Positions 6,248 to 37,362 of a DNA stretch of 53,605 nt are shown here, piece after piece. The stretch lies in IMG/VR virus record IMGVR_UViG_3300009418_000023, positions 1 through 53,605 of that record. One strand, given 5' to 3'. The position numbers were made by a program, and so were the translations under genes. The number at the start of each line of letters is the position of its first letter. Position 1 is the stretch's first letter. The DNA is from a virus. Taxonomy: Duplodnaviria; Caudoviricetes. The notes under the pieces were generated by a model, which had not been told where the DNA came from, ran no database searches, and saw only the letters and a program-made list of their open reading frames with translations.

Positions 6248-8689
6248 TTACGCAAAGAAATAATCTGATTGTAAAACTTCCTCAAGCATAAGCTTGCCCC
6301 GTGTTGGAACGTCGGGAAGTTTAATTCCTAATTGGTTTTCAACCTCCTTCTTGAAGTTTTCTAGTTGGTTTGTCTTATGAATCTTAACAAACTCTTCTCT
6401 TAGTAGGTTTCTCATATCATCTATATAATTAGCATGGCACCCGAAGGAATCATGAATCATACAGAGGTCTATTATACCACAGTCTATCAGTCTGTCAATA
6501 GTTAAAAACATATGAGCAGCATCTAAACTGTGTATAAAGTTAGGGGAGATAGCTTGTAAAGAATCACGCGGAGCCACATCATTTGTCTTAACATAGAATA
6601 TAAGTTCCTTCTTGTTAAACAGATGAGCAAGAGATCTCCTCTTCTGTTGTTTATTATACTGGTGAACTACTTTAAACCCACTGGGGGTTGTCCACTCAAC
6701 GTGTTTGTTAAGCTTGTTAGCTTCTTCAATAATAGATTTTAAATATTGTTTGCCTTTGTTTGGTCCACTTAATGAGCGGTCAAGGCTAGCTTTAATAGCT
6801 CGGGCCAGCTCAACAATAGCTGCACCCTTCTTCTCACGAGACACCCAGTCGAGGTGTCCCTCTTCTTTTAGGTATCTCTGTATTCCATAGAAAGTAAGAC
6901 CATACGGTTCACACATTGTGCTGCGCTTTGTTACCTTCCTATCAATTTTATTATCCCAAAACTCTAGAAACTCACGATACCAATCGTTGTCGCTACTAAA
7001 GTTAGTGCAATAATCAGTAGTAACATCAGCTACATACTGGTATAGATCGTGCGGTTCGTCTGAAGGAGTTACCCCAGTCAGCTTAGCAATATCAGTGTCG
7101 CCCATGATAGAAGACCAGTGTTGGTTGCCGTTACATTTACCATCGATCTGTACAGGTACATAACTCATACCATCTTTCCTAGTAATGTCAAAGATCATTG
7201 CCAATCTTTGGAAAGACTTGTTCTTCTTCTTGGAATCATCAATCCATTCTTTATTTCCATATGGATCTTGAGATATACGTTCAATCATGTCCCAGTTATC
7301 GTCAACCCATTGTATTCTTTTATCAAAGGATACTTTATCTTGGTCAAACAGGTTAGCTAGATATATTTTCTGCCAATACCTACCCCTCTCGGTTATCTTA
7401 ACACCATTAGCAAACCTAATCATCCCCCTATCTAGGTCAGATGATTGGGGGGACAGCAACTCACAGGTTGTGTATGCCCTGCCCCTGAAATCTAGGGTGT
7501 AGACATGATAGAAAAACCCCCAAGGAATAAGATTCTCAGCCAGCTGAAGACGTATTAACATCCTTCCGCGAGCTTGTTCTTGCTTATACCAATCACTCCA
7601 AGCTTCCTCTTGGCGTTGACACCAGATAGCCTGTTGTTCTTTTGACCCATCTTTAGGGTACTCCTCATTATACATGAATTCTTCGAACGAAAAGTAGGGT
7701 AGATTAGCTAGCCCAGTATTGTTCTTAAACAGGGATTCCATCACCTCTACTACTGGTTCATTGATAGACCACTCTGTTTTCATCATGTGATTCAAACCCT
7801 TAACAACCTTTAAAGAAGGGCTCGAAAATTTTTGGTCCCTTTTTTGGTCTCCAAAGAAATTAGATCTAAACTTCTGGACCATAGGTTTCCTTAGGTTGGT
7901 ATGTATATACCCACCTGTAGATATTGTAGTATGGTCTTCGGGGATAGACAACATAGGTCTATATATTAGTGTAGAGTTCTGAAGAACATCGTGTCTTTTG
8001 TGTAGCTCTCTAAGAACATCGGGATGAAACTCAACCGATAGAAATTTCTTATAAGAATTACCTCGTTTTATCATATGAGAAGTTAAGATAATTATATTAG
8101 AAGAGGCAGCTATCCTAAGCATGTTATGTCCGAAGTCATGCCTTTGTTTAATTGATAGCTTAACATTTTTGTCCATCTTATCGGCAAATGCACGGCATCT
8201 CTTAGGTGTCCAGTTCTTTATAAACTTAGATTGTCTTAACCAATCATCTCTGTTATCTTCCTTAGCTCTTTGGAACGCAATAATATCACAAGCGTCATGA
8301 GATATCTGTGTAGCTAAGGTTTGTGCTAGAGGGGGGATAACTTTATCCTTTTCCCACCTGTATCCCCAGAAGGTACTAGAGAACCAGCTTCTAATCACAG
8401 CTCTTATAGTTATGTCAGCCATCTTCTGCGGACCCAGCTCAAGTAAGGGGTACAACCATTGAGGTGACTTACTTGATTGACACACCCTATCAATCCACTC
8501 CTGAAACACTTCTCTTAGTTCTACAACAGAAGAATCAATAAGTTCTTGTTCAGGTATGCCCTCATCGGGAGCGCGCTCATAGTCTGACCAATATCTAGAC
8601 TTACCATACTCAAGCATCTCTTGTTCATACAAGATCTGCGAGTTCTTTCTCTCTAACTTAGCGTCATCAGTTAAGGTATCCCATTTCAT
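6248..8689 (-). CDS. Single-subunit T7-type DNA-directed RNA polymerase (RNAP1)
   Basis: DFRGRAY, motif A IDGKCNGNQH, DLY, motif B RKVTKRSTMCEPYG, PNFIHSLDA, motif C IHDSFG, C-terminal YFFA. Confidence 0.98.
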   Translation of the reverse strand: MKWDTLTDDAKLERKNSQILYEQEMLEYGKSRYWSDYERAPDEGIPEQELIDSSVVELREVFQEWIDRVCQSSKSPQWLYPLLELGPQKMADITIRAVIRSWFSSTFWGYRWEKDKVIPPLAQTLATQISHDACDIIAFQRAKEDNRDDWLRQSKFIKNWTPKRCRAFADKMDKNVKLSIKQRHDFGHNMLRIAASSNIIILTSHMIKRGNSYKKFLSVEFHPDVLRELHKRHDVLQNSTLIYRPMLSIPEDHTTISTGGYIHTNLRKPMVQKFRSNFFGDQKRDQKFSSPSLKVVKGLNHMMKTEWSINEPVVEVMESLFKNNTGLANLPYFSFEEFMYNEEYPKDGSKEQQAIWCQRQEEAWSDWYKQEQARGRMLIRLQLAENLIPWGFFYHVYTLDFRGRAYTTCELLSPQSSDLDRGMIRFANGVKITERGRYWQKIYLANLFDQDKVSFDKRIQWVDDNWDMIERISQDPYGNKEWIDDSKKKNKSFQRLAMIFDITRKDGMSYVPVQIDGKCNGNQHWSSIMGDTDIAKLTGVTPSDEPHDLYQYVADVTTDYCTNFSSDNDWYREFLEFWDNKIDRKVTKRSTMCEPYGLTFYGIQRYLKEEGHLDWVSREKKGAAIVELARAIKASLDRSLSGPNKGKQYLKSIIEEANKLNKHVEWTTPSGFKVVHQYNKQQKRRSLAHLFNKKELIFYVKTNDVAPRDSLQAISPNFIHSLDAAHMFLTIDRLIDCGIIDLCMIHDSFGCHANYIDDMRNLLREEFVKIHKTNQLENFKKEVENQLGIKLPDVPTRGKLMLEEVLQSDYFFA

Positions 8690-10431: not shown

Positions 10432-10746
10432 TTATACCTCATAAACCTTATACTTAGCTACGTAGTGTGGGTGATCATACTCAGCTGACTCTAGTTCAGC
10501 CACCCAATCGAGTTCTTGATCGGTTTCAATGTCTCGTAGATAGCCTGTAATATTTACATATATCATCTCGTCCTTGTCAGTAGTGTATTCTACCATAGCC
10601 ACATCATCTGTCAAGCGCATTCTCATACATACATCATTTTCTTTTGATCCATGCCATTCGTAGGTACCAATCCCCTCATCTTCATAAGCATACTCTAGCT
10701 GTTCATTAATCTGATCTCTTACATCATCCTCAAGTAATATCGTCAT
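10432..10746 (-). CDS. Hypothetical acidic protein
   Basis: Packed early operon; D/E-rich. Confidence 0.7.
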   Translation of the reverse strand: MTILLEDDVRDQINEQLEYAYEDEGIGTYEWHGSKENDVCMRMRLTDDVAMVEYTTDKDEMIYVNITGYLRDIETDQELDWVAELESAEYDHPHYVAKYKVYEV

Positions 10747-13969: not shown

Positions 13970-14326
13970 TTACAGGTTGATTGCAGTGAAGGATACAGTC
14001 GATCCTTCGGTGGCGTTCTCGTATACCTTCCTATTATAGAAAGGATTCTTCACGCTGTCAACCCCTCGAAAGAACTTCTTTACATTATTATCTGTACGAA
14101 TCTGGAACACATAGCCCTTGATTGGGACATGTGTATCTTCAATATACAGATCATAATCTGGGTACTGATTCAACAGGTTGTTGATTGCAGCTACCCCTAG
14201 TTCTACCTCGGTTCCGTTGAACCAAGTCTCCCAGTCACCTTCATTGTCATGGCACGCTTCAACAGAGAAGCTAGGCACATCAAATCCAGAAACTCGGGAA
14301 CGTACTGTAATGTTTGGATACATCAT
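13970..14326 (-). CDS. Hypothetical protein
   Basis: GGAG RBS. Confidence 0.75.
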   Translation of the reverse strand: MMYPNITVRSRVSGFDVPSFSVEACHDNEGDWETWFNGTEVELGVAAINNLLNQYPDYDLYIEDTHVPIKGYVFQIRTDNNVKKFFRGVDSVKNPFYNRKVYENATEGSTVSFTAINL

Positions 14327-14968: not shown

Positions 14969-15072
14969 TTAGATTGTTCCAGTGTATTACCAGTTATACT
15001 ACATACGCGACGCGCGTAGTACATTACATACTATATTTCGCCATATGAACGGGAGTCGAACCCGTATCTCTG

Positions 15073-15144
15073 GAATGTTAGAGTAGTTTAGTGTCATGAG
15101 GCTTATATTGCCTTCCCATAGAGTTACCGCTCTTACTCAGGACA
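15073..15144 (-). repeat. ~72-bp direct repeat copy 1, putative pseudoknotted ncRNA
   Basis: Near-identical to 15837-15909. Confidence 0.85.
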
Positions 15145-15445
15145 AGTATATCGACCCATCCCGAAGGTTCCCGCCAAGGGTAGTGGCGCTATCATTCCTT
15201 ATAAAGATGACACATTTGCTACTCTTGGCTGCATCTAAACCTCAACCTAGCCCCTTCAACCGTCCAACATTACTAGGCATGTCTATATAGTTCATAGTGC
15301 AGAGGATTAGGCTACACAACCGTCAGGGGTGGCTCAATTAGTCTCACTTGGCTAGCACAATGCAAGCCCTAATGATACATCACATGAAGCGGTCTATGGC
15401 AGGGTCATGACTCCCTACATCCCTTTGTTCTCACACGTGTAAAAA

Positions 15446-15524
15446 TGGAGGCGGGCGGAGTCGAACCGCCGTCTTCGAGAGTCCGACATGCGGAGTTCTC
15501 TCGAATCTAAACCAAATCACCCCC
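15446..15524 (-). ncRNA. Mini tmRNA-like RNA (tRNA-like domain only, G3-U70 Ala acceptor)
   Basis: GGGGGTG ATTTGGTTTAGA TTCGAGAG..CTCTCGAA GAC GGCGG TTCGACT CCGCC CGCCTCC A. Confidence 0.75.
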
Positions 15525-15588
15525 CATAACGCGGAAGCCAGCGTGCTACCAGTCATAACACTACTAGGCCCAAGGTGCGACCTTGGCG

Positions 15589-15785
15589 TAACCTAGACAG
15601 GATTCGAACCTGTTCTACTGGACTCTCCTTGTTGATTGTTGACCGGCAGGATTCTCTATACCTGCAACCGAGAGATATCGTAAAGATATGGTCACCTCAG
15701 TACCAGCGTGATCCCAGTCAAGGGAATGCCCTAAACCACTTGGTCGTTGGGCAGACTACCACAGTCTACGCTTGTGCCTTAGGCT
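15589..15785 (-). ncRNA. ~197-nt multi-hairpin RNA closed by an acceptor-like stem and T-arm
   Basis: ACAGG-TTCGAAT-CCTGT then CTAGGTT-A; 5' AGCCTA pairs with TAGGTT; internal hairpins GTAGACT/AGTCTGC, TCCC/GGGA, GCAGG/CCTGC. Confidence 0.45.
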
Positions 15786-15836
15786 CCGATGTCAGAAGCC
15801 TTATTCAGCCACGGTCTACCCCCGTCGGGGTGTGTT

Positions 15837-15909
15837 GAATGTTGGAGTAGTTTCAAGTCATGAGGCTTATATTGCCTTACCATAGAGTTACACACTCTTA
15901 CTCAGGACA
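15837..15909 (-). repeat. ~72-bp direct repeat copy 2, putative pseudoknotted ncRNA
   Basis: Near-identical to 15073-15144. Confidence 0.85.
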
Positions 15910-16697: not shown

Positions 16698-16704
16698 CTG
16701 TAAA
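16675..16704 (-). promoter_or_regulatory. Putative sigma70-type promoter
   Basis: Minus strand TTTACA-18 nt-TATAAT in an intergenic region, pointing into the early genes. Confidence 0.45.
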
Positions 16705-27200: not shown

Positions 27201-30200
27201 GCGCAGTATTAAGATCATTAGCAAGGATACCTAACTTTCTAAGGTCAAAACTATTTCCATTATAAGTAACTACCTTGCCTCCCGCTAACAAATGCTGCTT
27301 CAACATCTTTAATAAAGCTCTAGCTTCACTTCCGCTTACTGAACGAGTAGGCGAGAAATGCTTACCCTTTTTAAACCCCACTCTTCCTGCTGCTTCAAGT
27401 GTTCTTTCAACACCACCAATACCTACAATACGTTGTTCCAAGTCCATCGTAGTTTCAATATCAATAGATATAACATTATCTGTATCGTATATCCAATTAG
27501 GGTTGCTTTGGATTTCAATAATATTAGCTGCTTCAGCTTCATCTAAACCTAGCGATGTTAAGATTTCTACTGCTTTGGTAGGATTATGTTGAGACCACAT
27601 AGTTCTTTCTGGTGCAGCCCTAGCCATAATATTCATCTCAAGCAAACCTAAACTAGATAGTCTCTTCATAGCTGTAGTAATTGGAGAGATTAAAGACTCA
27701 ATAAAGAAGGGTAATGCATTAGGTCTAAGTCCAGCATCTGGTCTATAATAATTAATCCAGTCTACAACTCTAGGTTTAATATTACCAGATGAACGAGAAC
27801 CATCAACAAGCATATGAGCAACGGTGTGTCCTGATTCAACACGATCTACTATAATCTCCATTGCTTCACTTAAGACTCTTTCTCTGTTCATCTTTTCAGT
27901 TTCACTGTAGCCGAAGTAATCAGCCATCTCTTCAGCATCAGATCGAACTAACTCAGGCTTACCTTCGGCATTAGATCGATAGCGACCTGTTGGCTTGTTG
28001 GTACGCATCGCGGTTTCTATTCTTTCGATAAAAGGATAGTTCTTATGTGACGAAAGCATCAGTAAAGCACCCATTGGTGTAATACCGAGTTTCATGTTTG
28101 TTCCGATTACCGTTCTTGGAACTCTCATAAGCATAGTAAAGGGGCCACCCATAGGATTACGTAAAATCATTTTATCAGTACGTTCATCCTTCGTTGGCTG
28201 CTGCTGTATTAACTTAACAAGGTCATTTCTACCCTCAACACTCTCTACAATAAAATCAAAGGAGAATACAGGATCATTTGCTAGTACAGCTTTCTCTCTA
28301 GCTACATTAATAATAGCTTCTCTGTGATCTGGAGGAATAGCGTTAAAGGATTGTATATCTCTTTGATTAGCAATAACTCTTAATTGTTTCTTTAGTGCGG
28401 GCTCCTTAACAATACCTATATATGTTTCTATAGCTTCAGATATATACCCATCCCACAGTACTCCTACAAGAAACTCCAACTCATCCACAGACTGAACAAG
28501 TAAGGGATGTATGGCCGTCTCTTCTAGTTTAATTGTTTCGCCCGGATTAACCCCCTCTTCAATTATAAAGTGCTCTGTAGGAACTAAGCTTTTTTTCAAA
28601 GCTTTGTGAATAAGGGTTGGTCCGGATAAGACAGAGAATGGATTATTCTCCGAATATGGACTTGTCAGGATATCATATAGCGTTCTATCTGCTAAGTCTG
28701 GATTTAAAATACCAATTTCATGTCCCTTAGTTTCCATAAGTAAGGAAGACATCTCTTTGTATCTAATATCCCGAGATAATTGGAACAGCGCGTGGAATCC
28801 TTCGAGGTATGTATTACGGGCTTGTAGTAGTTTCTCTTCGTTAGTTAGTCCTTTATCTCCATAGCGTACAGCAGAAATGATCTGGTCCATTTCATGTTCA
28901 AGTTTTTGATCAAACCTATATACTAAATACAAGTACGGTACCATTTCTGGATCAAGCATCTCTGCCTCAAAGCCACGTTCTATTGCCCACTTACTCATCT
29001 TCATCTCAACAACATTAGCTACCATCTCAGGTGCATTAGCATCTAATCCCATAAGATAGTCTAGATAATCAGACTTAACATCTGGACCCATTGGAAGAGT
29101 TTCTCTATTCCAAGGTTTCTCGAATCCTCTACTAGTTACTGGAATTAAGTGATCAGGGTTTTCTAAGGGTTGGTCTAACATAGCCGATACTTCTTCAATA
29201 GGACTCATCATCTCTCGTTCAGCGGCATGATAAGCTTTATTCTGAAGGTATAGGTTGCCCTTATTGTGATAAGGCATTCTCCTAGTTTCAGGAGCCCAAG
29301 ACATGTATCCCCTTGGTTTGTCTGTAGACTCGAATACCATATCTTCTGTATCGTGTCGTAGTTCTGTCATTGTATGTTCTGCGGACCCTCTGAAGGTCAT
29401 AGGATGTCCTGCGACTGGGACCAGTAAACCTATACCCTTAGAGAAATAATCTATGCTTGCTTGGTTTCGAGAACCATCAGCATTCCTAACACTATCTTGT
29501 TGTAGTCTTTGCGCATTAGTATGATCTATAGCAGCTTCTTGAGAATGCTCCCACCACTGACTCAATACTTCGGCTTCGAGTTCATCCATATTATCTTCAG
29601 CTTTATATTTTGACAGAGGCGGCTTCTCGGGTTCTGTAACTCTAAGAAGCATTTCATTTCTCATCATAAGAACAGCAATAGTATGATCCATTCTCTTGTG
29701 CCACTCCGCTACTTCAGCGTCATTATCAAAATCAACCATTCTCATTATGGGGTTGCCATATTTATCTAACCTTACCTTCCCATTTTTATCCCTAACCGGA
29801 ATCTTTTGATGAGGATTATCTTCCATTCTCCACTGACCCAACGGAGATTCGCCTTCTACGTCTACAAATACTTGCTTACCGTTTACATATTCGTAGGGAT
29901 TTTCAGACCACTCCATGATCTTTCTACCAATCTTAGCAGGGTTATCCCAATCTTCATCTCTAATCTCTTCTGCTACGAAACTTTTAAACGCATCTTGATT
30001 AGTTTGGATTCTAGCAAACATCGTGTTGTGATGGTGTCTATTCATATTAGAACTTGCAGAATAGGTTCTATAACTCTCAAGACCGGGTAAGAAGATTTGA
30101 TACAGAATAAAGTTCTGAATTCCAAGAAGATCTTCTTCATTAAATCTCTGGTGATTAGTTGCTGCTTGTGCCTTTAATACATCTACAGCAACTCTGAACC

Positions 30201-33200
30201 CCGTAGAGTTTACTGTATTTAATGCTCTGAATAATTGATTATGTTTCCAGTGCATACCCTTTGGTTGCAGTAATTGGCCAACCTCTTCCCTTTCAGCTAA
30301 AGTTAGCTTTCCTCCTTCTCCCGGCTTTGCCCTAGCATCTGCTTTCCTAATGATTGCGTCAGCTTTCATCAACCTACTATTCTTATACTTCTCCTTAAAT
30401 GCTTCTACAGTCATCTGAACTCTTTCGCCATCCGGTCCTATCATCATCTCACGCTTAGCTAACATAGCAATATTTAGATCCAGTTGTCGGCGTAAATAAT
30501 CTCTTTTCATAGCGGGGTTATTTTGATCTGTTTTCTTAATCTCCTTGTTCCGCATACTCTTTACAGTTGAAATCCAATCTGTTATATGCCTATCTGTCAT
30601 GTTTTCGTGCATTGACAGAATTTTTCTTGCTTCTTCCCGAAGACCCTCAATACCCAAAGCTACATCAATAACAGCAGCGTTCTCACCCGCTATATGGTCA
30701 AATATAGAATGTCCAAACAAAGCCATAACATGTGATATACCTTCAGATTGATCCTTAAAATTAAAACCAAACTCTTGCCTCAGCCTAGTCAGGATACCTA
30801 CAAACATTGGATCGGTTTGTAGTTCTACCCAGCCTTTCCATCCCATAGTATATAGCCTACGCATAACTTCTGGTTTCCAGAATTCACGCATCAGCTTCAT
30901 CTTCCTAACCATATCAGGATCAGAGCCTTCATTACTAACGTAATCAGTATACTTAGTATGATCATCGATTCCCAACGTAGCTAACTGATCATAAAACGTA
31001 ACCATTGGAGAGAGAAGTTCGCCATATTCTGGGTGTGCTAAAGCCTTTCTTCTAACGGTTTCAGCAAAACCTAAACCAGCTCTGATATAATAATCTTCAG
31101 CCTCAATAGACATATTCATTTTATTCCTTAACTCACCCATAGCGGTAATAGCTGCTTCGCTACCGAGACTTAGAATCTTAGTTACAAATAAACCATTAAA
31201 CTTCTTATCCAAGTAAGTCTTTGGTGAAAGGATCCTTTTATAGAACTCTGGGTTTTCCCAATACTTTGGCCCAAACTCTTTATAATGTTCTTTTGCATAG
31301 GCTTGTTCTGCTTCGGTAGCCTGTTGAATAACATCATTGGCTAATCCTTCTAAGTGCATGTTCATGCTTTCTAAAGCAAGTATAGAAGAAATACCACTCA
31401 TTGGAACAATAGTAGGTAAGCCTGTAGTAAGCTCAGGGTGTATCATTTTAAAAGCTGCATCACCCTCTGAAGTATAGACTAACCCCGGACCAGCCGCCCA
31501 ACGAGCATCATGGAGGAAAGCATAAGCAATATTTGCTGTATCTAATAGAACCTCAGAAAGAATATTCTTAAGTTCTTCTCTAGTAGTAATTCTATCGTTT
31601 AGTCTTACATTAATAATAGGAGGCAATAACCTAGCATCTGGTTGAAGACTTCTAGAAACAGGTCTACCCGGCACAGCACCATCTTTATCTTCTAGATAAG
31701 CGTTGTATTCTATAATATCGTTCTCATCAATCTCTTCTGTAAAGATAAACTCTAATCGTTTCCTTACAATAGCATCTTCAATCACAAGAGCAACAGCCTC
31801 AGGTCGTTCTGGAGCAAAGGAAGTCATGTGTCCCCGTAACATCGGGTGTGTCCGGACTGTCTCTCCTTCTTGCGGCTCATCAAAACGATTCTCTTCTTTT
31901 CTTTCTGATCTATATTCTGGGGATTTTCGTCTCTTGGTAACTATTTCTTTAGTTTTTAGTCTGGTTACTAAAGCAAAGTCAACCAGTTCCCAACCAAGCC
32001 GTCTTGCTGGTTGCCAGCCCCGAGTACCGTCCCCCATACTAATGATCTCGTCTCTAGTAATTAGGGTGTGTTCATTATCACCCTCTGCAAGCCTATCAAG
32101 AATTATACTAGCTATTCTATCTAGGTCTTTTAAGTCTTCTGGAATCTTAAAGTAAGCATATATATCTTTCTTCTGTCTTTGAGATTGCATAAAGAGTACT
32201 TCTAATTGCTCAACTATACCCTTTCTAACCTCCTCAAGATATTTCATCTCTGCTTCTGCTCTTGATTCCGGATCATCTAGATCAAAGGTAATTGTTTGGT
32301 CAAGATCGGGAGAAAGATTATCTGTTAAATCAATTAGGAAACCATACTGATTAAACAAATCATCATCGACTGCTCTCGACGCTTTCATAAGTCTATCGGT
32401 AAACGCAATGGCAGTATATAACCCAATCTTAGATTTAGGATCTCTATCATAAACCATAACATCTTCTTCTGTAGCCCTAGTTTCAGCATTCTTTGCTATT
32501 ACTGCCTGATGTGCCGTGTCTCGTTTTTTGATAAAGGTTACTAATCCTTCATCCCCCTTGAAGTCATGCAACAGACTTTTTAAAAGGTTCTTAGGAAATC
32601 CACCTTCCCCTGCTAAAGTAAGGGCTCGAACATCCTGTACAAACCCCCAATCTGTTAGATCTGGGCTAACGAGAGTCTTCCCTTCAGCTTCAAGGCGGTT
32701 ATTGATGCCCGAGATATATCTAAATAATCCTAACTGACCTTCTTCTGACTCGAAAGCCTTAAAGAGTTTGTGTATAATTTGCCTTGCTTCTAGTTCGTTA
32801 ATACGGCCATCCTGAAGTGCCGTCCTAATTTCTGCAACCCATGAATTAGCTTCGTGGATTCTCCACTTCTCCCCCTTTTCCTCAATCCTCTGAAGAACCT
32901 TTTGAACCTTTGCATCACCTTCTTTCGCTACAAGTCTCCGTCCTCTAATGCGGCGAACTAAGTCTGTGAGAGACTCTTTTGAGATTGCTTTAAGATCACC
33001 ATTAGCTCTCATTATTCTACGAGTAACTAAGGCAATAAGTTTATCTAATCTAACAAACAAAGTATCATACTCAAGACTCAAATCTTCCATCGTTCTGTTA
33101 CTAGGAAACTCCTCGCCTTCTGCATTAACAATAACTTCTCTAAAGACTGCATCATAGATACCATCTGGGAGACAACTATCAACAACGAAGATTGGAACCA

Positions 33201-36200
33201 ATCCTACTTCAGGATCTAAGGCTCTACCCCACGGTCCTTCAAGTACAGATATTAATTGCGAATGAAACTCTTGAAGTGCCATCAACTCTTCTGCTAATGT
33301 AAATGCATACTCTTCAGGAACTATTCCTCTATCTATACTTTCTTTGTTTATCGCGGTTTTGTTTGCAGCTTCAGTATTAGTTCGATCAATAGCTGGAGCT
33401 TCTGTAGCTTGGTTAATCCCCCACTGAGAAGCAGTAATTGGCCTGTTACTTACACGACTCCAATTAACATCTTTGAAGTAGTTCCTCTTAATAGACTTTA
33501 TATATGTCTCTCGTTCTTTAGCAGCCTCTTCAAATATAGCTAATGCTTCTTCCTTACTATAAACAATTGGATCCTCATCGCTATCTGCTCTCTCATCTAT
33601 TTCTTTCTTAACCCTGTCTTTGGTAGCACTTTCAGGTAAGAACGCTCCTAATAAGTCTTCAGCAGAAATAGTCTCTGTGGTTTCGAGTTTCTTTGTTAAT
33701 ACATGTCTTCGTATTGTTAAAGTCTTTAGTTCTTTATTACGATAATCTAATACTGCCCTGATTGTTTTCAGCTGATAAGACGCAAAACCATATTTCCTAG
33801 CCATATCTAGTTTGTATCTTAAGGATATCTTTTCACGCTTTCTATCTAACCTCTTCATATCCTCTTCTAATTTCTCCAATTGTCTATATTCATCTGAAGG
33901 TTGAATTACCTTAGTAAATATTTCATTCTGCATTCCAATAAGACCCAAAGCTAATGCTCTTAAGTCATCAAGCTTAACCCGCCCACTCTTTATACCTTCT
34001 AGGAGACTAGCTTTATTTTTTTCATTACTCTTTATAGTTTCCCATGTCTGTACAGCCTCTTCAAGATCGGCCCATTCTTCAGGAGAAACATCATTCTTAT
34101 CCATTTCCCCCTTTTGTCTCCACTTTGGGTGTTTCCCTGCTTCTGCTTCTGCCGCAATCGTATCAACAAAGGTTTTACTTAAGGTGCCAACTACTAGAGA
34201 AAGTTTAGATATCCTTTTACCCTTTTCACCTACATACTTTGTATCAATAGCATCTCGTATCTCTTTAACCTTTTCAGTTAACTCACCGATCTCCTTCTTT
34301 ACGTCTCTTAAAGCTTCACTATCGGATTCAACATCCTGCCACGCAGCAATACTTTCATCAAACTCGGAGATTAACTCGTCCATTTCAGCAATAAGTTCGT
34401 CAAGTTTATTCCTTATTTTTGGATCGGTAGTTCCTTCTCGTTCTTCTTCAAGAGCTGCCTTAAGGCTTTCAGCTTCCTCTTTCTCTTTTGTTGTTTGGAC
34501 AACTGCGGATTGTTGCTCTCCTTCTTGTGCTCTAAGACTATCTATCCTAGCGTTTACAAGACCCTCCCCCTCAAGATCTTTCTTTCGCCATGCTTCCTCT
34601 TCTTCAGTTAGTTTTTTGTCGGCAATAATCTTCTTAGCAATACGATCAGAAATCTCCCAGTCAGTCTCTGGAACCTTATCAGTTACCTCCTTGATCTCAG
34701 CATCAATCTTTTTAATAGCTACAGTAAGTTGCCTAACTGTTTCCTTCTTACTTGCAAAATCTTCAAGTTCAAACAACTCTTCTACCGTAGTAACTTTTTC
34801 TCTGTCTATCTCAACTTTTTCCATACCCTTTTTTCTCTTGTGAGATATTTTACCAGTCTTAGAGTGCTTCCAATAAAAACCCATACGAAATATTTCACCA
34901 GCAAAGGATTCTACTATACCGGTAATTTGTGCTTGTATCTTACCCTTCCTCTCAACTTTATCTTGTATCCCCGCCATTGCCTTTTCTCGTTCAGCTTGAG
35001 CTACTCCAGCCTCCTTTAGTCTCTTGGCTCTTTTTCTCGCCGCCCTCATTAGGCTAACCTTACGTCTAAGTGTAGACGGTTTTTTTGGAGCTAGCTGTGG
35101 TGACTCCTTTATCTGTTTTTTAATAATACGGTCTACTGCTTCTTTATGCTCATTATATATCTTCTCTTCTTCCTTAGTTAATGTCACATCACCTCTTTTT
35201 TTAATAGCAATATCAACTAAGACAGAATCTTCCTCCTCCTCCTTCGCTTGAATTAAAGAGTCAACATCTTCAGCCTTTTGTTTAAGTCTTTCTAACTCTG
35301 TTGTATTAGCCTCTAAAGAAAGTTTAAGTTTCTCTTCCTTTTCTCTAAATTTTTCCTCAACCTCAACCTCAATATCATGAACTACTTTAAGCTTTTCTGC
35401 AGCTGTGGCTGTATCAAAATTAAGTCCTTCTTTATCCATCCTCACACGAACCATACTCTCTACATTATCATCAACATATATTTCCCAAAGATCTTCATCA
35501 GAAATTTCATCTGTTTGATTAAGCCACTCCTCTGGGGTAAAGTTAGTTCCGTTTTCCTCATTCAACTTACGTACATATCTTGCCACCCGAAGCCTAGTTT
35601 TTGCTATAGCTGTACGTTCTCCTAGTTGTTTAGCTAAAGTCTGGGCTTCTGGTCCTCCTAATCTTTGAATTAGTCTATTAGCAATCTCATCTAGAAGTAC
35701 ATCATCAGATATCTTCTCCCCATCCAAATCATTTTTAATTTCTTCTAACAGACTAAGAATACTGGTTACATCATCATATGTATTAACCCCGTCTCTGATC
35801 TGCCAAGGATCAAGAACAAAACCAAGAGGTCCATCCATTAAATCATTTAAGTCAATATCTCCACCTTCTTGTCGAATAGAGTTTAAGGAATCAACGACTG
35901 AATCACCTAACTCATAATGCTCTATAGCTGCTAAGATAGGATTATCACTACCCCTTGCGGCTGCCTTCCAAGCTTCTGTAATACTAGACCTAAGTCTAGC
36001 ACCAAGTGGAAGACTCATAATACCTTGACCAATTATACCACCAGCTGCTGAAAGAGGAGCGTTTACTGTATACTTCATAGCTGTTCCAAGGATTGGGTTT
36101 GCTACGACAGAGAACACAGCCTCCATCTTTGCTTCAGCCCAGATACCACCTAAATCATACTCATCAATAAACCCTCTTTTAATTTTCAAAGTTTGGTTTA

Positions 36201-37362
36201 TACCTTCAGCTAAAGCACCCTCAACGAAACCCTCTCCTGCATTAAGAGGAGAACTATATAACATTCCCCTTAAGCCTTTTGTTTTAGCTAGCCTTTTACC
36301 AAGATCTGGGGCAATCTTACTAAAGATAGTTGTGCCTATGTTTTCTGGAAGCCAGTCAACAATCTTAGCTATCTTTGTTGCATGTGTAGAAAGCTTAGTA
36401 ATATTAGTAATCCCTTTAGCAATAGTAGCAGCTCCGTGTACTTTTTTAAGTACCCGACCCGCAAAGAAGCCAGCCGCTATTGGCGCACCAACTCCAAGTG
36501 TTGCTGCTGTAATACCTAAACTAATAACAATAGAGGCAGGCATGTCTGGATCATTTATTAGACCGTCTCTAATAAAAGGCCACGCCGTAAGATTCCAAAA
36601 CTCTTCCATCCCTTCCATCTCTTTTTGGTGGAAGGAGATAGATTGCGCCACTGCCTTATGATCAATAGCCTCATTAATAAAATACATAAAGGCATCTGAG
36701 TTAGTAGCATCTTCTGTTATTTTCTTTAGTCCTTCTCTACCACCAAAATTAAGTTCAAGATAAGCAAGATGACCGGGGCTAGTATCAGCCATAATATCCA
36801 ACATCTTATCAGCACTATAGTTTTCTTGTACATACTCAAATAAATCTTCCGGCTGCTGAAACATTTGGGCAGCAAAACCAGAACCAACATCAACATATCT
36901 ACCAATATCTTTCCAATCACCACCAAACTTAAGCCAGTTACTTTTGGTTGATAAGAATGGCTCAAGAAAGCCTTTAGATGTATCAGATAATCCGGCTTCG
37001 CCCTTTGGATCTTCTATTAGTTCTTGACCCCGTAAAATTCTTTTTGCTGTTAGGTTCGATCTCGCTTGATTATATGTAAAGATACCTCTATGATAATCAT
37101 CTGCAAACGCCATTGATGTTGCAATATTAGCTGGTAGTGTTCCAAACGCATAACCATCCTCATAAGGTATTAGACCCGCACCATACTGTGATTCCCTACC
37201 TTGTTCATAAGGATCAAAAGGAAGTTCTTTTGCTAATCCCCATGCCTCATTTAGTCTCTTACTAAAAGGCGATACCCCTTCTTCATCCACCGCGTACTGT
37301 GACATATAAAACTCAGATAGCCGTGGCAGTTTTGTTGGAATATCAAACTCTGATCGTGGCAT
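21283..37362 (-). CDS. Giant internal virion (ejection) protein, 5359 aa, with putative virion RNA polymerase domain, DEDD exonuclease domain and degenerate zincin motif
   Basis: Last gene of the internal-virion block; AAGGAG RBS; coiled-coil region; YLDKKFNG, EDYY, REFWKPEVMRRLY, NQDAF; DIET/YNGNSFD/YISED; EEIGH...EEF. The ORF is certain, the domain calls are motif-based. Confidence 0.8.
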   Translation of the reverse strand: MPRSEFDIPTKLPRLSEFYMSQYAVDEEGVSPFSKRLNEAWGLAKELPFDPYEQGRESQYGAGLIPYEDGYAFGTLPANIATSMAFADDYHRGIFTYNQARSNLTAKRILRGQELIEDPKGEAGLSDTSKGFLEPFLSTKSNWLKFGGDWKDIGRYVDVGSGFAAQMFQQPEDLFEYVQENYSADKMLDIMADTSPGHLAYLELNFGGREGLKKITEDATNSDAFMYFINEAIDHKAVAQSISFHQKEMEGMEEFWNLTAWPFIRDGLINDPDMPASIVISLGITAATLGVGAPIAAGFFAGRVLKKVHGAATIAKGITNITKLSTHATKIAKIVDWLPENIGTTIFSKIAPDLGKRLAKTKGLRGMLYSSPLNAGEGFVEGALAEGINQTLKIKRGFIDEYDLGGIWAEAKMEAVFSVVANPILGTAMKYTVNAPLSAAGGIIGQGIMSLPLGARLRSSITEAWKAAARGSDNPILAAIEHYELGDSVVDSLNSIRQEGGDIDLNDLMDGPLGFVLDPWQIRDGVNTYDDVTSILSLLEEIKNDLDGEKISDDVLLDEIANRLIQRLGGPEAQTLAKQLGERTAIAKTRLRVARYVRKLNEENGTNFTPEEWLNQTDEISDEDLWEIYVDDNVESMVRVRMDKEGLNFDTATAAEKLKVVHDIEVEVEEKFREKEEKLKLSLEANTTELERLKQKAEDVDSLIQAKEEEEDSVLVDIAIKKRGDVTLTKEEEKIYNEHKEAVDRIIKKQIKESPQLAPKKPSTLRRKVSLMRAARKRAKRLKEAGVAQAEREKAMAGIQDKVERKGKIQAQITGIVESFAGEIFRMGFYWKHSKTGKISHKRKKGMEKVEIDREKVTTVEELFELEDFASKKETVRQLTVAIKKIDAEIKEVTDKVPETDWEISDRIAKKIIADKKLTEEEEAWRKKDLEGEGLVNARIDSLRAQEGEQQSAVVQTTKEKEEAESLKAALEEEREGTTDPKIRNKLDELIAEMDELISEFDESIAAWQDVESDSEALRDVKKEIGELTEKVKEIRDAIDTKYVGEKGKRISKLSLVVGTLSKTFVDTIAAEAEAGKHPKWRQKGEMDKNDVSPEEWADLEEAVQTWETIKSNEKNKASLLEGIKSGRVKLDDLRALALGLIGMQNEIFTKVIQPSDEYRQLEKLEEDMKRLDRKREKISLRYKLDMARKYGFASYQLKTIRAVLDYRNKELKTLTIRRHVLTKKLETTETISAEDLLGAFLPESATKDRVKKEIDERADSDEDPIVYSKEEALAIFEEAAKERETYIKSIKRNYFKDVNWSRVSNRPITASQWGINQATEAPAIDRTNTEAANKTAINKESIDRGIVPEEYAFTLAEELMALQEFHSQLISVLEGPWGRALDPEVGLVPIFVVDSCLPDGIYDAVFREVIVNAEGEEFPSNRTMEDLSLEYDTLFVRLDKLIALVTRRIMRANGDLKAISKESLTDLVRRIRGRRLVAKEGDAKVQKVLQRIEEKGEKWRIHEANSWVAEIRTALQDGRINELEARQIIHKLFKAFESEEGQLGLFRYISGINNRLEAEGKTLVSPDLTDWGFVQDVRALTLAGEGGFPKNLLKSLLHDFKGDEGLVTFIKKRDTAHQAVIAKNAETRATEEDVMVYDRDPKSKIGLYTAIAFTDRLMKASRAVDDDLFNQYGFLIDLTDNLSPDLDQTITFDLDDPESRAEAEMKYLEEVRKGIVEQLEVLFMQSQRQKKDIYAYFKIPEDLKDLDRIASIILDRLAEGDNEHTLITRDEIISMGDGTRGWQPARRLGWELVDFALVTRLKTKEIVTKRRKSPEYRSERKEENRFDEPQEGETVRTHPMLRGHMTSFAPERPEAVALVIEDAIVRKRLEFIFTEEIDENDIIEYNAYLEDKDGAVPGRPVSRSLQPDARLLPPIINVRLNDRITTREELKNILSEVLLDTANIAYAFLHDARWAAGPGLVYTSEGDAAFKMIHPELTTGLPTIVPMSGISSILALESMNMHLEGLANDVIQQATEAEQAYAKEHYKEFGPKYWENPEFYKRILSPKTYLDKKFNGLFVTKILSLGSEAAITAMGELRNKMNMSIEAEDYYIRAGLGFAETVRRKALAHPEYGELLSPMVTFYDQLATLGIDDHTKYTDYVSNEGSDPDMVRKMKLMREFWKPEVMRRLYTMGWKGWVELQTDPMFVGILTRLRQEFGFNFKDQSEGISHVMALFGHSIFDHIAGENAAVIDVALGIEGLREEARKILSMHENMTDRHITDWISTVKSMRNKEIKKTDQNNPAMKRDYLRRQLDLNIAMLAKREMMIGPDGERVQMTVEAFKEKYKNSRLMKADAIIRKADARAKPGEGGKLTLAEREEVGQLLQPKGMHWKHNQLFRALNTVNSTGFRVAVDVLKAQAATNHQRFNEEDLLGIQNFILYQIFLPGLESYRTYSASSNMNRHHHNTMFARIQTNQDAFKSFVAEEIRDEDWDNPAKIGRKIMEWSENPYEYVNGKQVFVDVEGESPLGQWRMEDNPHQKIPVRDKNGKVRLDKYGNPIMRMVDFDNDAEVAEWHKRMDHTIAVLMMRNEMLLRVTEPEKPPLSKYKAEDNMDELEAEVLSQWWEHSQEAAIDHTNAQRLQQDSVRNADGSRNQASIDYFSKGIGLLVPVAGHPMTFRGSAEHTMTELRHDTEDMVFESTDKPRGYMSWAPETRRMPYHNKGNLYLQNKAYHAAEREMMSPIEEVSAMLDQPLENPDHLIPVTSRGFEKPWNRETLPMGPDVKSDYLDYLMGLDANAPEMVANVVEMKMSKWAIERGFEAEMLDPEMVPYLYLVYRFDQKLEHEMDQIISAVRYGDKGLTNEEKLLQARNTYLEGFHALFQLSRDIRYKEMSSLLMETKGHEIGILNPDLADRTLYDILTSPYSENNPFSVLSGPTLIHKALKKSLVPTEHFIIEEGVNPGETIKLEETAIHPLLVQSVDELEFLVGVLWDGYISEAIETYIGIVKEPALKKQLRVIANQRDIQSFNAIPPDHREAIINVAREKAVLANDPVFSFDFIVESVEGRNDLVKLIQQQPTKDERTDKMILRNPMGGPFTMLMRVPRTVIGTNMKLGITPMGALLMLSSHKNYPFIERIETAMRTNKPTGRYRSNAEGKPELVRSDAEEMADYFGYSETEKMNRERVLSEAMEIIVDRVESGHTVAHMLVDGSRSSGNIKPRVVDWINYYRPDAGLRPNALPFFIESLISPITTAMKRLSSLGLLEMNIMARAAPERTMWSQHNPTKAVEILTSLGLDEAEAANIIEIQSNPNWIYDTDNVISIDIETTMDLEQRIVGIGGVERTLEAAGRVGFKKGKHFSPTRSVSGSEARALLKMLKQHLLAGGKVVTYNGNSFDLRKLGILANDLNTAQIVAELSIDLMQNNMLADSKFLGGDITQSLNWTLNSLLKGLKLGEKSEEGMFAAALKKRGTRVNGEPVVVTEKDLSLAFERSGSPIQADAIRRKIAEINERSPEASMDLYNKYISEDAEFNEKILKELVRRTTPVDIEAASEGPFRGTVKGKAKTTFKTIVPTWNIEMEHSSPHSQANSRGLSLIHDLTGVRESYMDVYTDGVDLEHRTIQELLVTTLQLTDGNIKNPATIRAIILGLMLRQPDIEMGEVRVFFPLMSRETAAEKEKFDADVSSAYLRVKGEFNQLMSILNATDSQQFNDFYWDARSYVDQISEGERTVSGDSDITIDFLAYLQEIYDIEDMSTEMHSSAEAALASVLDTHVFDRDPDLFNELHLKSRDLRNHDNFSSAVPELGKLSLKIKEAVDGGRLSEAQARMIRAILGKWFKYAPDMVLEVNFEFLDSEWVDNSGKQRRGSAEKSGGRYTIRIGNQLVGRRDALSVAYLVAEEIGHIGRMMFIENDSYHYREWRTLFLRERSKQGGGTLKKLVMAFHNGQWNKAAQDEYARIMNDTTGEEFIAALTGYHLVHDSLELLRQVEANTPLTSEEAGFFAKTQTIIDKIFAFIGKILDRVSSVFSDFKSTEPAEYERAINLIRRTLGQDATKTSRNTIADVGNPDMGPLYMSTEGTQQQSTVENTENELLATLQSLDEVKRRMGELEDAIHHNFYTPEAPESESGKFEKEWEELSKERGQLENRRDTLGGNKITPLGITTGEFLIGRENLKNQYSVRSGDFSVETYGPDLLDVKRIFVEGTPHDQQILATQILMDMTKMMRGNDGRFMAEATKAIQQLPYFNRPGGIGSKVKQFMTMLATGSTESGATWNSPFTLLVMLSTMIDNSMSTMAGHWGNMDGIPHVLGSVQQIDQISTEIRNSMERVYDDIIGPIESTVRFRTQVLGNTAGNEKTRDTFAKEVWTKLVKQMAGEAYEYTDALLVNSTELRKEADNIVTNYAALLGIVNHMGVEVGVMDRAFDEAIPFMFANAKVQDQPVYNNFREEMGKVIGDRIVTESQNIDLKTRRMCPYTLYAMGELPHLADPEVGLKELAELETKNPQLWKEIMAMAELMRQRQSERSTSYDSTLTRLASIKTNEEYRSLLTNKTSTIEQHNTYVNYVIPAIAQIMRYMRYKKNKFSADYLGFNSENTRITAGWWSKYRAEAKKPNQARLDILRGQSIDSRLATLGVVEGKSARQQSPTISSPVSVHVANIMNGAGRKIYFSNDWAIPPVHEVMNNPAIADMLVWGPETISDGIMKHLGQRIAEQSMYMDKYGIKATTGDVLGIFRNVLGMGNLFNSDGSRISAKDSDILTKAMGVLEIKYNTILGKQESNRDSADETLNFITRYAPDVVRIVFGTNLTMATLVVENTMNMIDQLLGRGSMGGFIKAAVAPLMGLDPNIRKNVARDMAEIIRIFNQGRIPDYARPDIDVRSEWYQRLPQWLGERNMHLAGILHQMIATSRATIFRGWLQQATVGGDGSKLKEFLRLHKQVDPKEWDTVDGRKIISKLMSRVGLPGTDAANIMYLMNEGVLTNDNVDILAKMVNSPKGDEYYSLGGLLTNLNKGEAWEGGPQWATTDPEYKQYLDIISGLRRAEKRYIHEILVDPNPFDTATGNSSWDLIFETFRRYPVLFASQQIGRRNQRFSLRRNALHWVSYAMVDSLYMSLLLVAAGYPVEDIIEGWEEDPVKQSLFMMARLPHFGRYIGLLMETVVGIYANTHREAFGFVPVGAMNSFLYNVKKLIDGWTDDEKDTDWASMIMLTRTLPVIGDALTRIIFFSAMGEEWQRQNNSMSRGAKSSNKKWATYGSFSETSNLPQYAADLREILRELGWEPKFENLPPAIQQQLLQGYNPSGATGTPKMQYPNPAATPAPAPKTTAPSVPSQAPAAPTPRPMRRDIVGAIRETRPERAPESLVGAPVGSPEWEDRERKAQQRRYDRDAGIID

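What the first reader, a model, noticed from the sequence alone, without database searches (positions are those of the whole stretch)
6248..37362. Three single-subunit RNA polymerases in one genome: possible three-tier transcription cascade
Seen: RNAP1 (6248-8689, canonical), RNAP2 (17492-19324, compact) and the candidate domain in the giant virion protein. Established: T7-like phages normally have one RNAP; N4-like phages have a virion RNAP plus a split RNAP II. Inference: a T7/N4 hybrid programme, with the virion RNAP for pre-early genes, RNAP2 for early genes and ncRNAs, and RNAP1 for replication and late genes. This could be largely independent of host RNAP. The order of steps is a hypothesis.
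Basis: partly seen in the sequence, partly recalled or inferred. Interest (0 to 1): 0.9.

Follow-up and report, generated by a model that had tools for sequence, protein, structure and literature searches.

The report
Marine phage with two RNA polymerases
This marine T7-like phage carries two single-subunit RNA polymerase genes, one ordinary and one very small and divergent, but no polymerase could be detected in its giant 5,359-residue protein.

Summary
Two of the three claimed polymerases are real. RNAP1 (6248-8689, minus strand) is a canonical T7-like enzyme (PF00940 3.5e-82). RNAP2 (17492-19324, minus strand, 610 aa) has no Pfam hit. It belongs to a small family (7 other cluster representatives among 1.84 billion proteins) in which the catalytic residues of motifs A, B and C are invariant. 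The family profile hits T7 RNAP (3.4e-7), mitochondrial RNAPs and N4 RNAPII. An AlphaFold model matches T7 RNAP (Foldseek 8e-8).

The giant protein (21283-37362) gave no polymerase signal in Pfam, PHROGs, PDB profile searches, comparisons with T7-like and N4 virion RNAP profiles, or motif scans. A control showed these methods would miss a polymerase domain as divergent as N4 vRNAP is from T7. The giant could not be folded.

The assembly is not chimeric. The order giant gene, RNAP2, conserved 187-aa ORF recurs in independent metagenome contigs from diverged relatives, and one of these also carries RNAP1.

Conserved consensus sigma-70 promoters upstream of RNAP1 argue against independence from host RNAP.

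Two T7-like RNAP genes in one phage already have precedents (Lactococcus phage KSY1; N4). This is a new variant of a known kind, with a new minimal RNAP family.

The parts
6248..8689 (-). RNAP1: canonical T7-like single-subunit RNA polymerase, 813 aa. Motifs: DFRGR 7478-7492, motif A 7127-7147, motif B 6899-6940, motif C 6440-6457, C-terminal DYFFA 6251-6265.
   Evidence: PF00940 3.5e-82, phrog_414 5e-159. About 27% identity to Autographiviridae RNAPs. Motif coordinates.
17492..19324 (-). RNAP2: compact (610 aa), very divergent single-subunit RNAP with a truncated N-terminal region. Motifs: DKRGR 18746-18760, motif A FDQGCSG 18458-18478, motif B RTTAKRLARGGQYEAG 18266-18313, motif C NHDGF 17693-17707.
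   Evidence: Family of 8 cluster representatives. Invariant D284, R338, K342, Y350, G353, D542. Profile versus PDB: T7 RNAP 3.4e-7. hhalign to RNAP1 90.9%. AF2 plus Foldseek: T7 RNAP 8e-8 and viral RNAPs.
16808..17371 (-). orf187: conserved ORF directly downstream of RNAP2. Candidate RNAP2 accessory factor (inference only).
   Evidence: Homologue directly after RNAP2 in 10 of 10 related loci. Alignment A5. No Pfam, PHROG or PDB hit and no relation to N4 gp2.
21283..37362 (-). Giant 5359-aa protein; role as an internal or ejected virion protein is inferred from position. No detectable RNAP domain. DEDD/RNase H-like exonuclease-like segment about 27163-27471. Zincin-like site 25732-25749 (HExxH in relatives, AEEIGH here). 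Only 2 Cys.
15000..21500 (.). GC-rich island (0.46-0.57 versus about 0.40 elsewhere) holding RNAP2, orf187, small ORFs and structured RNAs. A matching rise in GC occurs in relative L004.
14033..14061 (-). Consensus sigma-70 promoter TTGACA-17-TATAAT (12/12) at the start of the AT-rich early gene block leading to RNAP1.
   Evidence: Counterpart in L004 at 8067-8095 (11/12, TG-extended), in front of the homologous ORF.
10587..10614 (-). Sigma-70-like promoter TTGACA-16-TAGAAT (11/12, TG-extended), about 500 bp upstream of DUF932 and RNAP1.
   Evidence: Counterpart in L004 at 11556-11583.
16746..16774 (-). Intrinsic-terminator-like hairpin (11 bp stem, 8 GC pairs) closing the RNAP2-orf187 unit.
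19989..21211 (-). Short perfect hairpins (5-7 bp stem, 3-4 nt loop) 8-21 nt upstream of the Shine-Dalgarno/ATG of the four small ORFs between the giant gene and RNAP2: 21195-21211, 20836-20851, 20304-20321, 19989-20002.
   Evidence: 8 hairpins (stem >=6) in 19300-21282 versus 1.22 +/- 1.16 in 100 shuffles, maximum 5. Relatives carry their own repeated hairpins at the same kind of position.
20856..20948 (-). Type II hammerhead ribozyme between two small ORFs of the island, ending just 5' of hairpin 20836-20851.
   Evidence: Rfam 39 bits (gathering score 37), E 2e-5.

Best explanation
The window is 79% of a roughly 67-kb marine T7-like podophage. It encodes two single-subunit RNA polymerases of the T7/pol I-like class, not three.

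RNAP1 is a full-length T7-type enzyme. It lies downstream of conserved consensus sigma-70 promoters, so it is most likely made by host RNAP and then drives middle and late transcription as in T7 (inferred).

RNAP2 is a 610-aa minimal polymerase. It keeps the catalytic palm and fingers (motif A Asp, motif B R-x3-K-x7-Y, motif C Asp). About 188 residues precede its T/DxxGR motif, against about 400 in RNAP1. It therefore lacks most of the N-terminal promoter-binding and melting domain, as N4 RNAPII does. It probably recognises a separate promoter class and probably needs a helper; the always-adjacent orf187 is the candidate (inferred).

RNAP2 sits in a GC-rich island full of hairpins, a hammerhead ribozyme and structured RNAs, directly after the giant gene. 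This linkage is conserved across the lineage.

The giant protein is most likely a multi-domain internal or ejected virion protein (inferred from gene position and near-absence of Cys). It carries an exonuclease-like and a zincin-like segment, not a polymerase.
For: RNAP1.

RNAP2 homology and catalytic motifs:
- 8 family representatives with E<=1e-3, self included.
- Invariant D284, R338, K342, G347, G348, Y350, G353, D542 in 8 of 8 sequences.
- Family HMM versus PDB: top 17 of 21 sequences are ssRNAPs (5 T7, 11 mitochondrial, 1 N4 RNAPII), best 3.4e-7. The alignment places T7 DWRGR, FDGSCSG and HDSF on the RNAP2 motifs.
- hhalign to RNAP1: 90.9%, E 1.2e-6, RNAP2 176-590 against RNAP1 391-798.
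- AF2 model with Foldseek: T7 RNAP 8e-8, TM about 0.40-0.44. BFVD: 35 matches at E<=1e-3, and those that carry a name are phage RNAPs or virion RNAPs, apart from one 'coil containing protein'.
- Collinear with N4 gp15 C-terminus and gp16 N-terminus.

Linkage and no chimera:
- L004 has giant C-terminus (53% identity), RNAP2 (39%), orf187, DUF932 and RNAP1 (72%) in the same order.
- orf187 follows RNAP2 in 10 of 10 loci. The giant 3' end precedes RNAP2 in all 6 loci with more than 1.3 kb upstream, and also in the more distant L021.
- 13 marine runs hold >=0.88 of the words of 14500-21500. An X10 contig spans 13000-21276.

Host-RNAP entry: sigma-70 promoters conserved in position between the window and L004.

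Giant negative for RNAP.
Against: - No activity or expression data. No run holding the stretch is on record as RNA.
- The window's RNAP2 gets no PF00940 hit, and the L004 orthologue reaches only 15.4 bits, below the 22-bit cut-off.
- The AF2 model is only moderate (pLDDT 67.4). It is below 50 exactly over the T/DxxGR region (182-209) and motif B (311-356).
- The G of T/DxxGR is kept only in the window's protein and one other family member. The window's C-terminus (LDTID) lacks the hydrophobic-Phe-Ala ending that several homologues share with T7.
- The negative result for the giant is limited. hhalign with these shallow profiles also failed to link the bona fide RNAP2 family to N4 vRNAP (0.1%), so a third, equally divergent polymerase domain would be missed.
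- No Logan contig in the four runs laid bridges 21274-21276 by 31 nt on both sides. The giant/RNAP2 junction therefore rests on the window assembly and on relatives' contigs.
- Promoters for RNAP1 and RNAP2 were not identified, so the order of steps is inference.
- 21% of the genome is missing from the window.
Confidence: 0.8

Rival explanations
1. One reading: the giant protein carries a virion RNAP domain that is injected and transcribes pre-early genes, giving three polymerases and a cascade largely independent of host RNAP.
For: Size (5359 aa) and position after the structural genes. Only 2 Cys, as noted for N4 vRNAP-like giants in the StenR_269 paper (passage read). The genes directly after the giant gene are each preceded by short 3-4 nt loop hairpins. 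These recall N4 early hairpin promoters in the leftmost part of that genome (N4 review, passages read). The sensitivity control was negative, so a very divergent domain is not excluded.
Against: No hit to PF00940, any PHROG RNAP family, any PDB polymerase, N4 gp50, a 7-member Schitoviridae mini-vRNAP profile, the RNAP2 profile or RNAP1. No ordered T/DxxGR-A-B-C motif set and no conserved DxDxD triad across 4 homologues. Conserved consensus sigma-70 promoters in front of the early genes and RNAP1. The hairpin at 20836-20851 lies immediately 3' of a hammerhead ribozyme, which fits an RNA-level role for the hairpins.
Confidence: 0.07
2. RNAP2 is a polymerase homologue used for something other than mRNA transcription, for example priming DNA replication or making only the neighbouring structured RNAs, or it is catalytically dead in this phage.
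For: It lacks most of the promoter-binding N-terminal domain. It evolves much faster than RNAP1: 39% versus 72% identity between the window and L004. It sits beside manA-like, tRNA-like and ribozyme elements. The window's C-terminus differs from its homologues. T7 RNAP and mitochondrial RNAP are known to prime replication (recalled, no call).
Against: All catalytic residues, including the rNTP-discriminating Tyr of motif B, are invariant in 8 of 8 family members down to 26% identity. That argues for a maintained polymerase activity. N4 RNAPII, equally truncated, is a true middle-gene transcriptase.
Confidence: 0.12
3. The GC-rich 15-21.5 kb segment with RNAP2 is an assembly chimera joined to a T7-like phage.
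For: A sharp GC step. Logan contigs of four runs all break near 21.1-21.4 kb.
Against: The same gene order and the same GC rise occur in L004, a relative with 39-72% protein identity. The giant-RNAP2 adjacency holds in 7 independent loci of at least 4 diverged lineages. An X10 contig is continuous across the 15-kb GC step (13000-21276). The loose end at 21269 is the L004-like variant, that is, a strain branch point.
Confidence: 0.01

Closest known systems
Bacteriophage T7 RNA polymerase / Autographiviridae transcription scheme
   Same: RNAP1 is a full-length member (PF00940, all motifs, FFA C-terminus). It lies after a block of small early genes with sigma-70 promoters and before SSB, primase-helicase and DNA polymerase. 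The nozzle, T7-type tail fibre N-terminus and TerL are also T7-like.
   Different: Only about 27% identity to any isolate's RNAP. The genome is about 67 kb rather than about 40 kb. It has a second RNAP gene, a 5359-aa protein and a GC-rich RNA-rich island.
Coliphage N4 RNAPII (gp15+gp16)
   Same: A minimal T7-like RNAP with a truncated N-terminal domain: 673 aa in N4, 610 aa here. N4 RNAPII depends on a separate cofactor, gp2 (review PMC4496689, passages read). RNAP2 is collinear with the gp15 C-terminus and gp16 N-terminus, and its profile weakly hits the 6dt7_B chain (7.9e-4).
   Different: RNAP2 is one polypeptide, not a heterodimer. Its sequence is no closer to N4 RNAPII than to T7-like enzymes. 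orf187 is unrelated to gp2 (0.3%). No N4-type vRNAP is present.
Lactococcus phage KSY1 (Chopinvirus), two T7-like RNAP genes
   Same: One phage carries a compact early RNAP gene (gp014, 610 aa, PF00940 2.8e-17) and a larger one (gp033, 820 aa, PF00940 1.6e-7). These sizes match RNAP2 (610 aa) and RNAP1 (813 aa).
   Different: No specific relationship: hhalign of the RNAP2 family to gp014 is 40% over 41 columns, and to gp033 6%. The host is Gram-positive, the virion module is phi29-like, and no giant protein is adjacent in the 50 kb inspected.
N4 virion RNA polymerase gp50 (Schitoviridae)
   Same: Giant size, likely virion location, very low Cys content. Short hairpins precede the genes next to the giant gene.
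   Different: No sequence, profile or motif similarity of the giant to mini-vRNAP. The catalytic motifs that are invariant in 7 Schitoviridae (R424, D559, R666, K670, Y678, D951) have no counterpart.

Membership tests
T7-like single-subunit RNAP (PF00940): RNAP1 | Profile match over the curated threshold; motifs T/DxxGR, A, B and C; C-terminal aromatic-Ala end | tested here: met
   277 bits against a cut-off of 22. Motifs located.
T7-like single-subunit RNAP: RNAP2 | Pfam PF00940 match over threshold | tested here: not met
   No hit at E<=0.01 for the window's protein. The L004 orthologue scores 15.4 bits, below 22. A six-frame search at E<=10 finds only RNAP1.
T7-like single-subunit RNAP: RNAP2 | Catalytic Asp of motifs A and C; motif B R-x3-K-x7-Y with Gly | tested here: met
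   D284, R338, K342, Y350, G353 and D542 are invariant in 8 of 8 family members. They align to T7 FDGSCSG and HDSF. The R-K and K-Y spacings of 4 and 8 equal those recalled for T7.
T7-like single-subunit RNAP: RNAP2 | T/DxxGR motif | tested here: inconclusive
   The window has DKRGR. Family members have D-x-R-x-R-x-Y, mostly without the Gly. The motif aligns to T7 DWRGR and to RNAP1 DFRGR.
T7-like single-subunit RNAP: RNAP2 | Right-hand fold like T7 RNAP | tested here: met
   AF2 pLDDT 67.4, pTM 0.64. Foldseek against PDB: all listed matches are T7 or mitochondrial RNAPs, best 7.9e-8, TM 0.37-0.44. The motif B and T/DxxGR regions have low confidence.
T7-like single-subunit RNAP: RNAP2 | Full N-terminal promoter-binding domain | tested here: not met
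   About 188 residues precede T/DxxGR, against about 400 in RNAP1. T7 residue 368 aligns to profile position 137.
T7-like single-subunit RNAP: RNAP2 | DNA-dependent RNA synthesis | not testable with these tools
   No biochemical data. No RNA run listed.
N4-like virion RNAP: giant protein | Homology to the mini-vRNAP domain with invariant R424, D559, R666/K670/Y678, D951 | tested here: not met
   hhalign gives 0.24% to gp50 and 0.1% to the 7-sequence profile. The HMM against the window's six frames finds nothing at E<=10. No ordered motif set. Caveat: control one search shows low sensitivity across families.
Double-psi-beta-barrel RNAP (crAss gp66 / YonO type): giant protein | Conserved DxDxD metal-binding triad | tested here: not met
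   No acidic triad conserved in the 4 aligned giants. No PDB profile hit. The fold was not tested.
N4 RNAPII system | Heterodimer of two gene products plus the gp2 cofactor | tested here: not met
   RNAP2 is a single ORF in all 8 family members and 11 loci. orf187 versus gp2 gives 0.3%.

The most novel reading that the evidence does not exclude
The genome-specific short hairpins (6-7 bp stem, 3-4 nt loop) placed just 5' of the ribosome-binding sites in the GC-rich island may be DNA hairpin promoters of the N4 kind. They would be read by the N-terminally truncated RNAP2 together with orf187, or by an undetectably divergent polymerase module in the giant protein. That would make a hairpin-promoter transcription tier grafted onto a T7-type programme in an abundant marine phage lineage. 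RNAP2 would then be a minimal (about 600 aa) single-chain RNAP that needs pre-melted or extruded templates.
Probability: 0.15. Interest if true: 0.8.

Novelty: new variant of a known kind. Interest (0 to 1): 0.55.

Why it matters
- It defines a previously unannotated family of about 600-650-aa single-chain RNA polymerases that Pfam does not see. The family has conserved catalytic residues but almost no promoter-binding domain. It is a natural minimal version of the T7 enzyme, of interest for polymerase evolution and as a possible tool enzyme.
- It shows that a T7-type phage lineage can carry a second, N4-RNAPII-like polymerase. That blurs the line between the T7 and N4 transcription strategies and gives a second, Gram-negative marine example beside Lactococcus phage KSY1.
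- The strict linkage of RNAP2 with a 4,700-5,400-aa protein and a conserved 187-aa ORF gives concrete candidates for a cofactor and for the targets of the second polymerase.
- It removes an attractive but unsupported claim of three polymerases and host independence.

Tried and rejected
- Single-sequence AlphaFold of RNAP2 was useless (pLDDT 38). This used one of the two structure jobs, so the giant protein could not be folded.
- tblastn of RNAP2 against 50,697 phage records found no match. The word-index protein search found only the protein itself. A close-relative scan of IMG/VR found nothing.
- Giant protein, residues 1750-3250, against shorter proteins: none at E<=1e-3. P0008 in IMG/VR: no pattern match.
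- Promoter search for RNAP1 and RNAP2 by direct repeats and by reading intergenic regions: no T7-style repeated promoter found. TGTTAGAG occurs 4 times against 2.45 expected, which is not significant. The late genes in the window are almost without intergenic space.
- RNA evidence: no RNA holder is listed for 14500-21500, so nothing can be said on expression.
- Logan contigs of X9-X12 do not bridge 21274-21276. I read this as a strain branch point or a genome end, not as evidence of a chimera.
- orf187 against N4 gp2 and PDB: nothing.
- A phylogeny of the polymerase domains was not built. At 10-19% identity between classes the alignment would not be reliable, and the profile statistics already show RNAP2 is not a recent copy of RNAP1.
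- Literature: four searches. I saw search listings and passages of PMC3821669, PMC10747016, PMC4496689, PMC11476376 and PMC2864571. None describes this phage lineage or the RNAP2 family. That is the limit of my claim that it is not in print. No supplements were requested; Additional file 3 of PMC2864571 lists manA loci and might include relatives.
As a result the 67.6-kb contigs seen could not be fetched, and RNAP2-orf187 binding could not be tested.
Full report
**What the window is.** It is a linear IMG/VR virus record of 53,605 bp, estimated 79% complete. All large ORFs lie on the minus strand. Read along that strand the order is:
- nozzle protein (51429-53531, PF25675 1e-69)
- tail fibre (47620-51417)
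- large terminase (44490-46187)
- three unassigned ORFs, then a 1430-aa protein
- the 5359-aa giant (21283-37362)
- a GC-rich island with small ORFs, RNAP2 and structured RNAs (21.3-14.9 kb)
- small AT-rich early-type ORFs and two tRNAs
- DUF932, RNAP1, a metallophosphatase, gp2.5-like SSB, T7-type primase-helicase and the start of a family A DNA polymerase

Proteins of this phage were seen on contigs of up to about 67.6 kb. That fits the completeness estimate.

**RNAP1.** The 813-aa product of 6248-8689 is an unambiguous T7-like RNAP (PF00940 3.5e-82; phrog_414 5e-159). All signature motifs and a DYFFA C-terminus are present. The best matches among 2,760 phage records are only about 27% identical, so the lineage is distant from cultured Autographiviridae.

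**RNAP2.**
It has an AGGAG Shine-Dalgarno, and the homologues begin MKYDNT. The protein has no Pfam family, no PDB sequence hit and no hit in phage records.
- *Family and motifs.* An exhaustive HMMER search of 1.84 billion cluster representatives found 8 proteins at E<=1e-3, including itself. They range from 41% down to 26% identity. In their alignment the Asp of FDQGCSG (motif A), R338/K342/Y350/G353 (motif B) and the Asp of NHDxF (motif C) are invariant. The R-x3-K-x7-Y spacing is the one I recall for T7.
- *Profile comparisons.* The family profile hits T7 RNAP at 3.4e-7, mitochondrial RNAPs at 6e-5 to 7e-4 and N4 RNAPII at 7.9e-4. These are the top 17 of 21 sequences; the other four are Mx1 at E about 1. 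hhalign against RNAP1 gives 90.9% probability over 355 columns.
- *Structure.* With the family alignment, AlphaFold gave pLDDT 67.4 and pTM 0.64. Foldseek put T7 RNAP and mitochondrial RNAPs first in the PDB (7.9e-8). In BFVD it found 35 matches at E<=1e-3, and those that carry a name are phage RNAPs or N4-type virion RNAPs, apart from one 'coil containing protein'.
- *Caveat on the model.* It is poor over T/DxxGR and motif B, so those rest on sequence alone.
- *Architecture.* About 188 residues precede T/DxxGR, against about 400 in RNAP1. The promoter-binding N-terminal domain is therefore largely missing, as in N4 RNAPII. The N4 review describes that enzyme as a minimal 673-aa RNAP with truncated thumb and N-terminal domain that binds only single-stranded DNA and needs gp2 (passages read). 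RNAP2 is collinear with the gp15 C-terminus and gp16 N-terminus but is one chain.

**The giant protein.** I found no polymerase in it. The tests were:
- Pfam and PHROGs on three overlapping chunks and on two homologues
- phmmer and a 4-sequence family profile against the PDB
- hhalign against N4 gp50, a profile of seven Schitoviridae mini-vRNAP domains, the RNAP2 family and RNAP1
- six-frame searches of the window with PF00940 and the vRNAP profile at E<=10
- motif scans for an ordered T/DxxGR-A-B-C set and for a conserved DxDxD triad

What is detectable is modest. There is an RNase H-like/DEDD exonuclease-like segment, over the Pfam threshold in homologue P0006. There is an HExxH zincin-like site in relatives, which reads AEEIGH here. 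There is also a long coiled-coil region, and only 2 Cys in 5359 residues.

The negative has a limit that must be stated. The same hhalign set-up also failed to connect the genuine RNAP2 family with N4 vRNAP. A polymerase domain that divergent would therefore escape.

**Chimera test.**
- *Synteny in L004.* An IMG/VR contig from another sample (L004) has the giant C-terminus (53% identity), RNAP2 (39%), orf187, DUF932 and RNAP1 (72%, cut by the contig end) in the same order. It shows the same local rise in GC.
- *Further loci.* Nine metagenome loci and the more distant L021 (giant about 31% identical; RNAP2-family ORF, E 5.5e-41) agree. orf187 follows RNAP2 in 10 of 10 loci. The giant gene precedes RNAP2 in all 6 loci with enough upstream sequence, plus L021. 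The remaining 4 loci have less than 1.3 kb upstream and cannot tell.
- *Sequencing runs.* Thirteen marine metagenome runs hold at least 0.88 of the sampled words of 14500-21500.
- *Logan contigs.* A Logan contig of run X10 is continuous over 13000-21276. All four runs laid break near 21.1-21.4 kb, where a loose end carries the L004-like variant. I read this as a strain branch point or a genome end.

**How it probably works.**
- *Host RNAP entry.* A perfect sigma-70 promoter (14061-14033) opens the AT-rich early block. An 11/12 promoter (10614-10587) lies about 500 bp before DUF932 and RNAP1. Both have positional counterparts in L004, at 8067-8095 and 11556-11583. Host RNAP therefore most likely starts the programme and makes RNAP1, as in T7. 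This is inference, but it speaks against host independence.
- *The RNAP2 unit.* The RNAP2-orf187 unit ends at a strong intrinsic terminator (16774-16746).
- *Hairpins.* The four small ORFs between the giant gene and RNAP2 are each preceded by a short perfect hairpin a few nucleotides 5' of the ribosome-binding site. There are 8 hairpins with a stem of at least 6 bp in 2 kb, against 1.2 expected.
- *Hairpins in relatives.* Relatives carry their own repeated hairpins in the same place: TGGTGC-TWA-GCACCA and CTGACA-TGG-TGTCAG in L017 and L019, and TAACGC-TAA-GCGTTA in L004.
- *What the hairpins might be.* They could be RNA 5' stabilisers or processing marks; one lies directly after a type II hammerhead ribozyme. 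They could be operator palindromes. Or they could be N4-style DNA hairpin promoters for a polymerase that cannot melt duplex DNA. I cannot decide among these.
- *Promoters.* No repeated T7-style promoter was found for either phage polymerase.

**Comparison with what is known.** Two ssRNAP-class enzymes in one phage are known from N4 (vRNAP plus RNAPII). Two T7-like RNAP genes are known from Lactococcus phage KSY1 (passages of PMC11476376). I confirmed PF00940 in both KSY1 products, gp014 (610 aa, 2.8e-17) and gp033 (820 aa, 1.6e-7). The sizes mirror RNAP2 and RNAP1, but the RNAP2 family is not specifically related to either. What is new here is the RNAP2 family itself, its pairing with a canonical T7-like RNAP in a marine podophage, and its fixed linkage to a giant protein and to orf187.

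**Verdict.** Novelty: a new variant of a known kind. Interest is moderate.

Noticed in passing
window 15636-15831 (-): manA RNA motif (79 bits, gathering score 55.2). It lies immediately downstream of one copy of a 55-nt direct repeat (15837-15891 and 15073-15127, 91% identical). manA RNAs were described from marine metagenomes, cyanophages and two gamma-proteobacteria (PMC2864571, passages read).
   Followed up: partly
window 15443-15524 (-): An 82-nt element scoring as tmRNA (51 bits, gathering score 47). It contains only the tRNA-like acceptor/T-arm part (306 model positions skipped) and does not end in CCA. Further T-arm-like GGTTCGA(NT)CC strings lie near 15600, 15060 and 14875-14894; the last is 90% identical to the T-arm of the tRNA at 11288-11307. 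ARAGORN calls none of them.
   Followed up: partly
window 20856-20948 (-): Type II hammerhead ribozyme (39 bits, gathering score 37) with CUGAUGA and GAAAC cores, between two small ORFs just after the giant gene. No Rfam family reached its gathering score in relative L004.
   Followed up: partly
window 15000-21500; L004 2000-8000: A GC-rich island (up to 0.57, against about 0.40 elsewhere) is conserved in a relative (0.42-0.46 against 0.34-0.37). It is therefore a lineage feature, not a recent insertion.
   Followed up: partly
window 25732-25749 and 27163-27471 (-), inside the giant gene: The zincin-like HExxH site in three homologues reads AEEIGH in this phage, so the first His is lost. A DEDD/RNase H-like exonuclease-like segment (PF13482) is over threshold in homologue P0006. 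The whole 5359-aa protein has 2 cysteines.
   Followed up: partly
window 16600-16700 (-): GGCTCCGCC occurs three times within about 100 nt, next to an 11/12 sigma-70-like promoter (16704-16675), downstream of the RNAP2-orf187 terminator. This may be a regulatory site.
   Followed up: no
window 17372-17491 (-); L004 5953-6080: The RNAP2-orf187 intergenic region folds into two hairpins whose stems differ between the two phages by paired (compensatory) changes. A conserved TATACT follows.
   Followed up: no
window 9116-10108 (-); L004 12159-13145: A DUF932 protein lies upstream of RNAP1, separated from it by one small ORF (8690-9003) in the window, and is conserved in the relative (35% identity).
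   Followed up: no
window 11282-11433 (-): Adjacent tRNA-Leu(TAA) and tRNA-Arg(TCT) genes in the early region.
   Followed up: no
window 1181-1861 (-): A 226-aa ORF between the primase-helicase and DNA polymerase has weak, sub-threshold sulfotransferase hits (E 2.5e-4).
   Followed up: no
L004 versus window: Between the same two phages RNAP1 is 72% identical, the giant C-terminus 53%, RNAP2 39% and orf187 28%. RNAP2 and its neighbour evolve far faster than RNAP1.
   Followed up: partly
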